Part shown: one piece after another, positions 19,102 through 22,812 of the stretch | Position numbering within the stretch: the first letter of the stretch is position 1 | How the letters are laid out: every line of letters starts with the position of its first letter | Assembly (NCBI RefSeq): GCF_009914755.1 | Contig: NC_060926.1 | Direction: 5' to 3' (one strand) | Source of the DNA: the human T2T-CHM13v2.0 reference genome, Homo sapiens | DNA length: 64,000 bases | Notes under the pieces: generated by a model | What the model saw: only the letters and a program-made list of their open reading frames with translations | Told to the model about the DNA's origin: nothing | Database searches by the model: none | Program-made: the position numbers and the translations under genes

Positions 19102-19617
19102 CAATAGAGCTAAAACTGGTCTTCTCCACACTTTCACATGTTTATTAAACATCTACTTCATGCCAGACCTTGTACTGACTCAAACAGAAATGTGAAAAGA
19201 GCATGCATGTGGAGCACTGATGAAGTCACAAAGGCTAGACAGTGGGTGCTAGATGAGAATGGCAAAATTCGAGGAGGGAACTCAGAAGCATTGCAATGGA
19301 ATCAAACTTAACAAAGTGATTATGGCCAAAAGTCAAAAAGCAAGGCAAAAAAGTCTCAAAAAGTTTCATCGCCCTTGAAAATCTTTTATGAATGTGCCAT
19401 GTTGGTACCATGTGCCATCTCTCAATAAATTCTTCCCAGGCAGGCTTTTCTCCCACCTTTGTGGAGAAGGCTGTTCCTTCAGTTGAGTACCAGATGAAAA
19501 GAATTGGCTTCCACTTTGAATTCATGGTGTACTAGGAGTACATCTGTTGAAACACTGGCATTCCATTCAGTGTGGTGAGATGTCCACCCCATGAAAGGCC
19601 TGAAAAAACTGTCAAGT
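19102..19617 (+). repeat. Long inverted repeat, left arm
   Basis: Reverse complement aligns along its length with 20518-20775 + 21080-21241 + 21673-21788. Confidence 0.93.
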
Positions 19618-19900
19618 AAGGTGACAGAGATGGAAAGGAGAGATTTAGAGAAAAAATGTAGGTGATAAAATTGACAGCCCTCTTAAGCCTTTGTGACAAT
19701 ATCCAACGCTATGTCCTCTATCCCTCCCTTATATACCTCCTCCAAGCTACAACTCACCATTCTAAATCACTAATCTGATAATGGTAAACGCCTTTAAACA
19801 CTTATGGCCAAACAATAATCTTCACACTTTCAGCTTTGATTTTCTAAAAGTCAAATATTAATGCCTGACAGAAGAATCAAGAGTAACAAAATTGCAATTT

Positions 19901-20102
19901 TTTTATTTTATTTTACTTTTATTATTATTATTATTATTATTTTGAGTGGGGGACAGGGTCTTGTGCTCTGTTACCCAGGCTGGAGTGCAGTGACACAATG
20001 ATAGCTCACTGTAACCTGGAACTCCTGGGCTCAAGGGATCCTCCTACCTCAGCCTCCCAAGTAGCTAGGACTATAGGCGAGTGCCACCACACCTGGCTAA
20101 TT
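19901..20102 (-). mobile_element. Alu right arm (AluJ/FRAM-like)
   Basis: (ATT)n tail; AACTCCTGGGCTCAAG; TSD AAAATTGCAATTT. Confidence 0.85.
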
Positions 20103-20118
20103 AATAAAATTGCAATTT

Positions 20119-20403
20119 GAGTCTTGCTGTGTCACTCAGCCTGGAGCACAGTGGTGCAATCTCATCTCACTGCAGCCTCCGCCCCATCGGGTTCAAGAAA
20201 CTCTTGTGCCTCAGCCTCCAGGATAGATGGGATTACAGGTGCCCACCACCACGCCCGGCTAATTTTTGTATTTTTAGTAGAGATGGGATTTCATCATGTT
20301 GGTCAGGCTGGTCTCGAACTCCTGACCTCAGGTGATCCACCCCCCGTTGGCTGTTCAAAGTGCTGGATTATTGGATTACAGGCGTGAGCCACCGCACCCT
20401 GCC
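20119..20403 (-). mobile_element. AluS lacking its poly(A) tail
   Basis: Dimer starts GAGTCTTGCTGTGTC directly after TSD AAAATTGCAATTT; AAAATGGCAATTT at 20404-20416. Confidence 0.88.
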
Positions 20404-20775
20404 AAAATGGCAATTTAAATGTTGAAATACTGTAGGCAAAACTTAAACATTTCATTTTACTAAGTGAGAGCATGTCCTAAAGTGAGAAGAAGATGGGAAA
20501 TGTAACTTGCTCTTTCACTCAACAATCTCTTCAGGACTTTCATGGTGTGAACATCTCACGACACTGAATGGAATGTCAGCCAGTGTTTCAACAGATGTAT
20601 TTCTGGTACCCCATGAATTCAAAATGGAAGCCATTTTTTTTCATCTGGTAGTCAACTGAAGGAACAGCCTTCTCCACAAAGGTGGGAGAAAAGCCTGCCT
20701 GGGATGAATTTATTGAGAGATGGCACATGGTACCAACATGGAGCCTTCATGAAAAATTTTCAAGGGCAATGAAAC

Positions 20776-21079
20776 TTTTTTTTTTTTTTTTTTGAGACAG
20801 AGTCTTGCTCTGTTCCCCAGGCTGGAGTGCAGTGGCACAATCTCGGCTCACTGCAACCTCCGCCTCCCATTTTTTTTCAAACGATTCTCCTGCCTTAGCC
20901 TCATGAGTAGCTGGGATTACAGGTGCGTGCCACCACACCCAGCTAATTTTTGTATTTTTAGGAGAGATGGGTTTTCACCATCTTGGCCAGGCTGGTCTCG
21001 AACTCCTGACCTCAGGTGATCCACCCACCTCAGCCTCCCAAAGTGCTGGGATTACAGGCATGAGCCACCGCACCCGGCC
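20776..21079 (-). mobile_element. AluS (Sx-like)
   Basis: Full dimer; TSD GGGCAATGAAA at 20764-20774 and 21080-21090. Confidence 0.94.
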
Positions 21080-21241
21080 GGGCAATGAAATTTTTTGAGA
21101 AGTTTTTGCCTTGCTCTCTGACTTTTGGCCATAATCACTTGGCTAAGTTGAGATTCACTGCAATGCTTCTGAGTTCCCTCCTCGAATTTTGCCATTCTCC
21201 TCTAGCACCCACCGTCTAGCTGCTGTGACTTCCTAAGTACT

Positions 21242-21672
21242 TGATATGGTTTGGATCTGTGTCCCATGTCACAGATCCGTCTAAATTTCATGTTAAGTTA
21301 TAATACCCAGTGCTGGATGTGAGCCCTGGTGGGAGGTGATTCGATCATGGTGGCAGAGTTCTCATGAATGGGTTACCACCATCGCCTCCCTGGGTGCTTT
21401 CCTCGTGATAGTGAGTGAGTGTGTTATTGTGAGATCTGGTTGTTTTAAAGCGTTTAGCGCCTCTGTCCTCTCTCTCTTCCTCCTGCTCTGGCCACACCCT
21501 CGCTTCCCCTTTGCCTTCCACCATGACTAAAAGCTCCCTGAAGCCTCTCCAGAAGCAGAAGCCACTATGCTTCCTGTACAGCCTGCAGAACCATGAGCCA
21601 ATTAAACCTCTTTTCTTTACAAATTACCCCGTCTCGCATTTCTTTATAGCAGTACAGGAACAGACTAATGCA
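21242..21672 (+). mobile_element. MSTA-like MaLR solo LTR
   Basis: TGATATGGTTTGGATCTGTGTCCC...CAGACTAATGCA; degenerate 5-bp TSD GTACT/GTGTT. Confidence 0.9.
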
Positions 21673-22812
21673 GTGTTCCATATGCGTATTATTTTCAAAC
21701 TTCTGTTTGAGTCGATACAAGGTCTGGCATAAAGTAGGTGTTTAATAAACATGTGAAAGTGTAGAGAAGACCAATTTTAGCTCCATTGCTATTACTCTGC
21801 AATAAAACAGAGGTAATGAAGATGGAAAGCAAAGATTTAGAGAGAAAATGTAGGTGGAAGAATTGACAGGATTTAGTGATTACTAAGATAAAAAGGATGA
21901 AGCTGGAAAAAGTAGAAGTTAGAATAAGGTTGGTTTTTGACAGGATATGTAAAATTCAATGTCATTCTTGAAAACAACTTATAACTTGAGTTGGTAACCC
22001 AGAGCACATATAAAAAAACTTGAGATTGATGATGTGGACTGTACAATAGTGTTTTCCCCAATATCTCTACTGTGAAGGACATAAATTAGGAATGATGATT
22101 TATTTGTCTGTCAAATTTTGAATGTTGTTATCACTTGAAGCTCTGAAATGCTTTTTTTAAGCAGGATTAATTTTGATAACAAGGATAGCAAACTGGTACA
22201 TGCAGGTACAGTGCTGGTGGCTGACTGTCCTTGGGACAACATGTTTCCCACAGAAGCCTGCAATTGACAGATCAGTGATCTACAGATTCCACCAGGTACA
22301 ACAGAATCCTGCAAGAAGTGATTAGGGTCAAAGGTCTTCATTGTTGTGTGTATTATGGCACTTTCATAAAAACAAAAATGTCAGTCCTGACTCAAATTTA
22401 AGGAGACATGCCATAATAGGGGTTAATGGGGGTTTCCTTTCACCGTGACTTATTTTTAGCATGATATTGAATCCTTTAGGACTAGAACCTGCTATATACT
22501 TATGGGGAATTAAAAAAAATAAAAAAAAGTTTTATCTTATCATTCTGACTGGTAAAACTTAATACTACCTGTATTATATGTATTGAAAACTATATCTTCA
22601 TTCCTGCTCTAGGTGGGCCCATCTAGGAGGGAGTGTGTGTCAGTGTGTTTGCGGCATTGTATATTATAGTCAACTGAAATTAATTATGTTTGTTCAGCTT
22701 ATTTCTAGCTCTTCAGTGGTTTTAGCTAAAGAAACATGAATGGCTATATCTTATATTAAGCAATAAAGGAATGTGGCAGTGTTGAGATATTAAAGTTCTT
22801 GTAAGATTTCCT

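What the first reader, a model, noticed from the sequence alone, without database searches (positions are those of the whole stretch)
19102..21788. Old ~520-bp inverted repeat of non-repeat DNA with near-identical internal blocks
Seen: 19102-19617 is the reverse complement of 20518-21788 once an AluS (20776-21079) and an MSTA-like LTR (21242-21672) are removed. The left arm keeps both empty sites; its AGCAC (GTGCT on the other strand) explains the decayed TSDs GTACT/GTGTT. Identity is patchy: 2 mismatches in ~103 bp (19398-19500 vs ~20638-20741), 2 in ~62 bp (~19234-19294 vs ~21159-21220, one CpG retained), and roughly 80-85% elsewhere by eye. The spacer is 900 bp, about 400 bp without its Alus. 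Known: MST LTRs and AluS are tens of millions of years old, so neutral arms should be uniformly diverged. Inference: the arms are being homogenised by gene conversion or recurrent inversion, or selected to pair as a long RNA hairpin (a dsRNA, endo-siRNA or ADAR substrate). I do not recognise the arms as a known repeat.
Basis: partly seen in the sequence, partly recalled or inferred. Interest (0 to 1): 0.8.

Follow-up and report, generated by a model that had tools for sequence, protein, structure and literature searches.

The report
Old local inverted duplication, partly homogenised
A 0.5-kb stretch of single-copy human DNA was copied in reverse a few hundred bases away tens of millions of years ago, and the two copies seem to have corrected each other for a while before drifting apart; it is an ordinary genomic fossil with no sign of a present function.

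Summary
The inverted repeat is real. Left arm 19098-19617 pairs with 20517-21792 once an Alu (20776-21079) and a MaLR-type LTR (21242-21672) are removed. That gives 514 aligned pairs, 53 mismatches and 89.7% identity. Both empty sites are intact in the left arm. The arm is single-copy in the genome.

It abuts the left arm exactly and lies 18 bp beyond the right arm. The event therefore copied a 580-bp unit with its first 520 bp flipped. This points to one complex DNA-level duplication by template switching, with a twin-priming-like topology but no poly-A or target-site duplication.

Past gene conversion is moderately supported by three results.
- The arms are about half as diverged as the age of the LTR that split one of them predicts.
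- Mismatches crowd within 30 bp of homology-block edges: 30/172 against 23/342 inside (permutation 48/20000, a test designed after seeing the pattern).
- The short direct repeat is 17% diverged.

An unsupervised test of patchiness is only borderline (p about 0.04). The longest perfect run is 53 bp, so conversion or inversion today is unlikely. Nothing supports a selected RNA hairpin. Cross-species data were not available.

The parts
19098..19617 (+). Left arm (A), uninterrupted. It keeps the empty LTR site (GTGCT on the other strand, 19215-19219) and the empty Alu site (about 19358-19374).
19619..19677 (+). Segment B. It abuts the left arm with 1 bp between and is the direct-repeat partner of 21811-21869.
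   Evidence: 49 of 59 identical
19678..20516 (.). Rest of the spacer. It is single-copy DNA plus two minus-strand Alus: a tailed right-half fragment at about 19945-20103 and a full-length one at 20120-20402. The Alus are bounded by three copies of a 13-nt word.
20517..20775 (-). Right arm, inner block. It pairs with 19363-19617.
20776..21079 (-). Alu inserted into the right arm after the duplication, with a target-site duplication of about 16 bp.
   Evidence: (Metazoa_SRP model, 74 bits)
21080..21241 (-). Right arm, middle block. It pairs with 19213-19374.
21242..21672 (+). Solo LTR of a MaLR-type endogenous retrovirus, with TG...CA ends and a 5-bp target-site duplication. It has thousands of genomic relatives at 76-81% identity and inserted into the right arm after the duplication.
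21673..21792 (-). Right arm, outer block. It pairs with 19098-19217.
21793..21810 (.). 18-bp junction filler between the inverted A copy and B'. It has no counterpart in the left copy and no close copy elsewhere in the window.
21811..21869 (+). Segment B', a direct copy of B.

Best explanation
This is a fossil of one old, local, complex duplication of ordinary single-copy DNA.

Origin. A contiguous 580-bp unit (A 19098-19617 plus B 19619-19677) has a second copy about 400 bp away in the original sequence. In that copy A is inverted and B is not, and they are joined through 18 bp of filler. This topology arises when two DNA ends copy the same template strand, one from its end and one from an internal point. 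Two successive template switches during replication repair (FoSTeS/MMBIR-type) give the same result. It mirrors L1 twin priming, but without poly-A or target-site duplication. Which copy is the original cannot be told.

Later history. A MaLR-type LTR and then an Alu inserted into the right arm, and two Alus inserted into the spacer.

Homogenisation. While the arms were long and alike, intrachromosomal gene conversion between them kept their interiors similar. It seems to have continued at a low rate after the insertions, inside the remaining 120-250-bp homology blocks. Sites within about 30 bp of a block edge escaped it. Conversion has since faded and the arms now drift apart neutrally.

Status of each step. 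Shown: the anatomy, the order of events (duplication before LTR and Alu), and single-copy status. Inferred: the duplication mechanism, gene conversion, and the absence of a present function.
For: Anatomy.
- Three inverted blocks and one direct 59-bp block are the only local similarities in 17500-23600 at E below 0.05, apart from a 32-nt palindrome at 23463-23494.
- A ends at 19617 and B starts at 19619 in the left copy. The right copy has 18 unmatched bases between them.

Single copy.
- A genome search with the arm found only this locus: 2 first-look candidates, both here.
- A six-frame search with the arm's 98-codon frame found only this locus at E below 0.2.
- The spacer is also unique.

Order of events. 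Both insertion sites are empty and intact in the left arm.

Conversion.
1. Arm divergence at non-CpG sites is 48/502 = 0.096, or 0.048 per lineage. The LTR's own branch is larger: 0.076 against its 29 nearest copies, 0.112 against 22 copies chosen without regard to it, and 0.147 as the ML terminal branch among 52 copies. The arm Alu's branch is 0.040.
2. The mismatch rate is 30/172 within 30 bp of a homology-block boundary and 23/342 farther in. Mean distance was as small or smaller in 48/20000 permutations and 46/20000. The Fisher test gives p=3e-4 and the exponential-decay model gives LRT p=0.006 with a decay length of about 26 bp. All four boundaries show 13-23% and all three block interiors show 5.8-6.8%.
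3. B and B' differ at 10 of 59 positions (17%), against 6.7% in the arm interiors (p=0.017). That matches twice the LTR branch.

Literature. Raised divergence at the edges of duplicated blocks is a described signature of gene conversion (passages of PMC2588116).
Against: - The boundary test was designed after I had seen the sliding-window table, so its p-value is optimistic.
- That test is carried mainly by the cluster at the LTR site (14/61). Dropping that boundary, or the right end, from the model removes significance (10962/20000 and 6197/20000).
- Unsupervised heterogeneity is borderline (84/2000).
- Counting transversions only, the deficit is weak: arms 0.038 against twice 0.023-0.038 for the LTR.
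- The LTR branch depends on the comparison set and may be inflated by differences among source elements.
- Homology blocks of 120-250 bp are below the reported minimal efficient processing segments (PMC3966225). Conversion after the insertions would have had to be rare events summed over a long time.
- No microhomology was evident at the junctions.
- No outgroup was available, so no substitution could be polarised and no conversion tract was seen directly.
Confidence: 0.6

Rival explanations
1. The same old inverted duplication, with no gene conversion at all. The arms have simply diverged neutrally. The apparent youth of the arms and the edge pattern come from an overestimated LTR age and from chance clustering.
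For: - The scan statistic is only p about 0.04 and the longest perfect run is unremarkable (590/5000).
- The transversion-only comparison barely differs.
- The lowest LTR estimate (0.076) gives only about a 1.6-fold gap.
- The boundary test was post hoc and depends on one cluster.
- The homology blocks are shorter than the reported MEPS.
Against: - Three partly independent measures point the same way: the LTR branch in all three estimates exceeds 0.048, the edge effect appears at all four boundaries, and B/B' is at 17%.
- Interior divergence per lineage (about 0.033) is below even the branch of the younger Alu that sits inside the arm (0.040). Strict independence since before the LTR insertion cannot produce this.
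Confidence: 0.25
2. The similar interiors are kept by purifying selection. Either each copy is a regulatory element of the SATB2 gene desert, or the two arms must pair in a transcribed long hairpin (a dsRNA, endo-siRNA or ADAR substrate).
For: - The arms would form a very stable duplex if co-transcribed: the inner block alone gives -384 kcal/mol, with perfect runs of 53, 41, 36 and 35 bp.
- Expressed, structurally stable inverted duplicates have been proposed as functional in mammals (abstract of PMC5398296).
- Interiors are less diverged than neutral controls.
Against: - No gene or functional element is annotated in the window (hub table).
- No Rfam family matches the arms.
- The mismatch spectrum looks neutral (33 transitions to 20 transversions) and G.U-compatible changes show no strand bias (12 against 21, p=0.16).
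- 304-bp and 431-bp insertions in one arm were tolerated.
- The low-divergence zones are placed relative to the insertion sites. Recombination predicts this and function does not.
- Transcription could not be tested.
Confidence: 0.08
3. The arms are two independent insertions of an old, low-copy interspersed repeat that happened to land head to head.
For: No repeat library (Dfam) could be consulted. Very old families could escape the genome search. By recollection only, the outer arm (about 19135-19180) looks a little like a MIR-type motif.
Against: - The arm matches nothing else in the 3.1-Gb assembly at DNA level or in six-frame translation.
- Two copies 90% alike with no third copy is not how repeat families look.
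- The abutting direct piece B and the 18-bp filler fit one rearrangement, not two insertions.
- No terminal repeats or target-site duplications flank the arms.
Confidence: 0.03

Closest known systems
Non-repetitive intergenic inverted duplicates / long inverted repeats of mammalian genomes (Inverted Repeats Finder class; Chen et al. 2017, PMC5398296)
   Same: It has two reverse-complement arms in unique intergenic DNA with a spacer under 1 kb (899 bp). That paper reports millions of inverted duplicates in the human genome (sections 6 and 12 read).
   Different: The arms are about 515 bp long; how that compares with the usual arm length in that class was not checked in the paper. One arm is now split by 735 bp of later insertions. 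Expression, which that paper uses as its criterion for function, could not be tested.
Concerted evolution of duplicated blocks with decay of conversion at the edges (Osada and Innan 2008, PMC2588116)
   Same: Divergence is low in the middle of each homology block and raised at its edges. Overall divergence under-reports the age of the duplication (passages read).
   Different: Those cases are gene-bearing blocks in Drosophila, shown with orthologues. Here the blocks are 120-250 bp of non-coding primate DNA, two of the edges were created by later transposon insertions, and no orthologues were available.
L1 twin priming (5'-inverted L1 and processed-pseudogene insertions; PMC2837659 seen as search listing and abstract start only; mechanism recalled)
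   Same: The upstream part of the template is inverted and the downstream part is direct, and the two parts abut in the source.
   Different: There is no poly-A tail after B or B' and no target-site duplication around either copy. The source lies only a few hundred bases away. It is therefore not L1-mediated. The likeness is in topology only.
Replicative template-switch rearrangements (FoSTeS/MMBIR; e.g. PMC11293582 and PMC3907307, seen as search listings only)
   Same: Nearby sequence is copied in mixed orientation with a short filler at a junction.
   Different: The described cases are large (kb to Mb), recent and often pathogenic. This one is 0.6 kb, fixed and tens of millions of years old. 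Junction microhomology was not evident.
Large sex-chromosome palindromes with arm-to-arm gene conversion (recalled; PMC11168930 seen as listing only)
   Same: Inverted arms are homogenised by intrachromosomal conversion.
   Different: By recollection, those arms are many kilobases long, nearly identical, carry genes and are still converting. These arms are 0.5 kb long, 90% identical, gene-free and apparently no longer converting.

Membership tests
Inverted duplicate (IRF-type, as defined in PMC5398296) | Two reverse-complement arms of 10-10,000 nt, well above chance | tested here: met
   514 aligned pairs at 89.7% identity; BLAST E 3e-98, 1e-52 and 6e-38
Inverted duplicate (IRF-type, as defined in PMC5398296) | Spacer of 0-1,000 nt | tested here: met
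   19618-20516 is 899 nt between the inner arm ends. Definition read.
Interspersed repeat (two independent insertions) | Further copies elsewhere in the genome | tested here: not met
   The DNA search found only this locus. The six-frame search found only this locus at E below 0.2. No repeat library was available.
DNA transposon or MITE with long terminal inverted repeats | Target-site duplications outside the arms, and other copies | tested here: not met
   No flanking direct repeat at 19098 or 21792. No other copies.
L1 twin-priming retrocopy | Inverted upstream part abutting a direct downstream part | tested here: met
   A ends at 19617 and B starts at 19619. In the second copy A is inverted and B is direct.
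L1 twin-priming retrocopy | Poly-A tail after the direct part, and target-site duplications | tested here: not met
   The sequence after 19677 and after 21869 is not A-rich, and no flanking direct repeat was found.
Staggered-break inversion / dupINVdup | Both flanking duplicated segments are in inverted orientation | tested here: not met
   B and B' are in direct orientation (plus/plus). The definition is recalled, not taken from a call.
Duplicates under concerted evolution (gene conversion) | Paralogue divergence lower than the age of the duplication predicts | tested here: met
   0.048 per lineage against an LTR branch of 0.076-0.147. The strength depends on the LTR estimate.
Duplicates under concerted evolution (gene conversion) | Raised divergence at block edges | tested here: met
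   30/172 against 23/342; permutations 48/20000. The test was post hoc and is driven mostly by the LTR-site cluster.
Duplicates under concerted evolution (gene conversion) | Paralogues cluster by species in a cross-species tree | not testable with these tools
   No primate or other mammalian genome is held.
Hairpin-RNA / endo-siRNA / ADAR-substrate locus | One transcript spanning both arms; small RNAs or editing sites | not testable with these tools
   No expression data are held. No gene is annotated in the window (hub table). Rfam gives nothing in the arms.
Inversion-toggling inverted repeat (NAHR) | Long stretches of identity between arms; spacer found in both orientations | tested here: inconclusive
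   The longest identical run is 53 bp, against reported MEPS above 200 bp. Population data are not available.

The most novel reading that the evidence does not exclude
The locus is a primate hairpin-RNA gene. A still-unannotated transcript would read through both arms, and the interior blocks would be kept pairable by selection together with gene conversion, yielding long dsRNA that feeds Dicer or ADAR. A milder variant is that the locus records how little flanking homology germline gene conversion needs. On that reading, conversion continued inside 120-250-bp blocks but failed within about 30 bp of a heterology.
Probability: 0.05. Interest if true: 0.65.

Novelty: new member of a known kind. 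Interest (0 to 1): 0.25.

Why it matters
The locus has little importance in itself. Small inverted duplicates are very common in mammalian genomes, and gene conversion between close paralogues is textbook. Two points have some teaching value. First, dated transposon insertions inside one arm give an internal clock. That clock shows arm identity under-reports the age of a duplication, and the insertions create new homology edges around which divergence rises. Second, the direct 59-bp piece shows that the repeat arose from a two-junction rearrangement rather than a simple fold-back. If orthologues confirmed conversion inside 120-250-bp blocks, the locus would be a small natural data point on the homology requirements of germline conversion.

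Tried and rejected
- Interspersed repeat or transposon origin. Rejected on the genome searches and the lack of terminal features.
- Coding or pseudogene origin. The left arm has a 98-codon open frame on the minus strand. It has no Pfam match: 0 families for 5 of 6 frames, plus one noise hit at E 0.18. It has no other genomic match, and the right arm carries a TAG in it. I judge it a chance frame. A resemblance I thought I saw to a mariner transposase tail was not borne out by Pfam.
- L1 twin priming in either direction and on either strand. Only one orientation fits the topology, and it lacks poly-A and target-site duplication.
- Staggered-break inversion (dupINVdup), with or without a later flip of the spacer. 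It does not reproduce the position and orientation of B.
- Removal of the LTR from the template by splicing (GT...AG at its borders). It would leave a 1-bp discrepancy, the splice sites are poor, and it cannot explain the Alu.
- RNA family search. All 16 matches at E up to 1 start in Alus, and only one, a weak mir-619 match, runs about 40 nt past the Alu into the arm's middle block.
- GC content of interiors against edges (0.423 against 0.392). The difference is too small and unpolarised to say anything about biased conversion.
- No cross-species comparison, repeat-library lookup, expression, editing or population-inversion data could be obtained with these tools.
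Full report

Yes. The repeat finder on 18500-22500 reports four collinear inverted pairs. BLAST of 19000-19800 against the whole window returns three inverted blocks:
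- 19358-19612 with 20780-20522 (90.0%, E 3e-98)
- 19213-19374 with 21241-21080 (87.7%, E 1e-52)
- 19098-19219 with 21792-21671 (86.9%, E 6e-38)

One is a minus-strand Alu at 20776-21079; the Rfam SRP model scores it 74 bits. It is flanked by GGGCAATGAAA(C/T)TTTT. The other is a 431-bp LTR at 21242-21672 with TG...CA ends, flanked by GTACT and GTGTT. The left arm carries each site once, uninterrupted, with GTGCT at the LTR site.

With the insertions and one target-site copy each removed, the arms align over 520 columns. That gives 514 pairs, 53 mismatches (33 transitions, 20 transversions), three indel events and 89.7% identity. The spacer is 899 bp, about 385 bp without its two Alus.

**2.

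A 59-bp direct repeat lies beside the arms: 19619-19677 and 21811-21869, with 49 of 59 positions identical. I compared 17500-23600 with itself after masking the Alus and the LTR. At E below 0.05 this found only the three inverted blocks, this direct block and a small 32-nt palindrome at 23463-23494.

In the left copy, arm A ends at 19617 and B starts at 19619. In the right copy, the inverted A is followed by 18 unmatched bases (21793-21810) and then B'. The duplicated unit is therefore a contiguous 580-bp stretch, and in one copy the first 520 bp are flipped relative to the last 59.

**3. Is the arm a repeat family or a gene fragment?**

- A DNA search of the whole 3.1-Gb assembly with the arm found only this locus: 2 first-look candidates, both here.
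- The left part of the spacer is also unique, apart from a 37-nt match to its T-rich end.
- Stop-to-stop frames of the left arm include a 98-codon frame on the minus strand. It has no Pfam match. Its only genomic matches below E 0.2 are the two arms themselves, and the right arm has a TAG in it. It is a chance frame.
- Rfam matches in 18000-23000 all begin inside Alus. One weak mir-619 match (25 bits, E 0.036) runs about 40 nt on into the arm's middle block.

The arms are ordinary single-copy DNA. No repeat library could be consulted, so a very old low-copy family cannot be excluded.

**4. How the structure arose (inference).**

A simple fold-back or inverted duplication would invert B as well. 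A staggered-break inversion (dupINVdup) would give inverted, not direct, B copies. That remains true even after one arm-to-arm flip of the spacer.

The arrangement is what results when the two 3' ends at a break copy the same template strand. One end starts at the far end of B and makes a direct B. The other starts at the A|B boundary and makes an inverted A. The products are then joined with a little filler. Two successive template switches in replicative repair are an equivalent description.

This is the topology of L1 twin priming. However, neither copy is followed by poly-A or flanked by a target-site duplication, so a DNA-level event is more likely. The direction is ambiguous. Either the left copy is the source and the 18 bp is filler, or the right copy is the source and 18 bp was lost at the junction. 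I saw no clear microhomology at the junctions.

**5. Are the arms too similar for their age?**

Both insertions postdate the duplication, so each arm should have diverged at least as much as the LTR has since it landed. I dated the LTR without building any consensus, using pairwise distances to other genomic copies under a star tree.

| Quantity (non-CpG sites or columns) | Value |
|---|---|
| LTR branch, against its 29 nearest relatives (biased low) | 0.076 raw |
| LTR branch, against 22 copies retrieved with another copy as query | 0.112 raw |
| LTR terminal branch, ML tree of all 52 copies (other copies: median 0.126) | 0.147 |
| Arm divergence, 48 of 502 sites | 0.096, or 0.048 per lineage |
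| Arm Alu branch, among 16 Alus of the window | 0.040 |

The 29 copies in the first row came from 40 scored out of 6075 candidates. None of the 22 copies in the second row was among those 40.

The arms look about as old as the Alu. They are only 0.4-0.6 times as old as the LTR that interrupted one of them.

The gap is weaker with transversions alone: arms 0.038 against twice 0.023-0.038. The LTR estimate also depends on the comparison set.

**6. Where the differences lie.**

An unsupervised scan gives only borderline heterogeneity:
- The best low-mismatch window is 19397-19486, with 1 mismatch in 90 bp; 84 of 2000 permutations did as well.
- Spacing dispersion was matched in 200 of 5000 permutations.
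- The longest perfect run (53 bp) was matched in 590 of 5000.

The differences do follow the structure. Take the four homology-block boundaries: the arm ends, the LTR site at 19217 and the Alu site at 19365.
- The mismatch rate is 30/172 within 30 bp of a boundary and 23/342 farther in.
- The mean distance of mismatches to the nearest boundary is 37.2 bp, against 48.7 bp for all sites. Only 48 of 20000 permutations reached a value as small, and 46 of 20000 on repeat.
- Each boundary shows 13-23%: 4/30, 14/61, 9/61 and 4/24. Each block interior shows 5.8-6.8%: 4/59, 5/86 and 13/193.
- An exponential model gives 0.23 at the edge, 0.055 inside and a decay length of 26 bp, with LRT p=0.006.
- The direct repeat B/B' is too short, and in the wrong orientation, to share in arm-to-arm exchange. 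It differs at 10 of 59 positions (17%), against 6.7% in the interiors (p=0.017).

Edges and B/B' at about 17% match twice the LTR branch. The interiors do not.

Caveats. I framed the boundary test after seeing the sliding-window table. The LTR-site cluster carries much of the signal. Leaving that boundary, or the right end, out of the model removes significance.

**7. Reading.**

The coherent explanation is past gene conversion between the arms. It would have been effective in block interiors and ineffective near heterologies. Osada and Innan described this pattern for duplicated blocks (passages of PMC2588116).

It is not a present process. The perfect runs are 53, 41, 36 and 35 bp. Reported minimal efficient processing segments are above 200 bp in mouse and 337-456 bp in human (passages of PMC3966225). 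The same figures argue against present-day inversion by non-allelic recombination. They also mean that conversion inside 120-250-bp blocks must have been rare events summed over a long time.

**8. The RNA-hairpin idea.**

If both arms were in one transcript they would pair strongly. The inner block alone gives -384 kcal/mol. But nothing points to selection for pairing:
- The substitution spectrum is unremarkable.
- Mismatches that would remain G.U pairs number 12 for a plus-strand hairpin and 21 for a minus-strand hairpin (p=0.16).
- Two large insertions were tolerated in one arm.
- The well-preserved zones are positioned relative to those insertions.
- No gene is annotated in the window (hub table).

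Expression, small-RNA and editing data were not available.

**9. Comparison with what is known.**

Inverted duplicates are reported in millions in the human genome, many in non-repetitive intergenic DNA (PMC5398296: abstract and sections 6 and 12 read). Concerted evolution of close duplicates, and replicative template switching, are established. This locus is a new member of known kinds. Its arms are longer than those of most such duplicates, by my recollection of that class. It carries a convenient internal clock and an informative direct-repeat remnant.

**10. Verdict.**

| Question | Verdict |
|---|---|
| Observation | confirmed |
| Interpretation | partly supported: past conversion likely; ongoing homogenisation, inversion and hairpin function unsupported |
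| Interest | low to modest |

The decisive test is an arm tree across primates, with interiors and edges analysed separately. It could not be run here.

Noticed in passing
window 19888-19900, 20107-20119, 20403-20415: A 13-nt word containing a 12-nt palindrome (AAAATTGCAATTT; the third copy has one change) occurs three times. It bounds a tailed Alu right-half fragment (about 19945-20103) and a full-length Alu that lacks a tail (20120-20402). Both Alus are on the minus strand. They are only about 68% alike over 139 aligned bases, so two separate insertions seem to have reused one target site.
   Followed up: partly
window 19235-19531 (minus strand): A 98-codon stop-free frame lies in the left arm. 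It has no Pfam match and no other genomic match, and it is broken by a TAG in the right arm. It is most likely a chance frame.
   Followed up: yes
window 19187-19247: This is the densest cluster of arm differences, 14 in 61 bp, and it straddles the empty LTR site. Under the conversion reading it is an edge effect. A local mutagenic effect of the insertion cannot be excluded.
   Followed up: partly
window 19135-19180: By recollection only, the outer part of the arm resembles the 5' region of MIR-type SINEs. I did not test this, because no repeat library is available. If true, the arm contains an older repeat fragment that was duplicated along with unique DNA.
   Followed up: no
window 23463-23494: A 32-nt imperfect palindrome (81% self-complementary, E 0.016 in the local self-comparison).
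   Followed up: no
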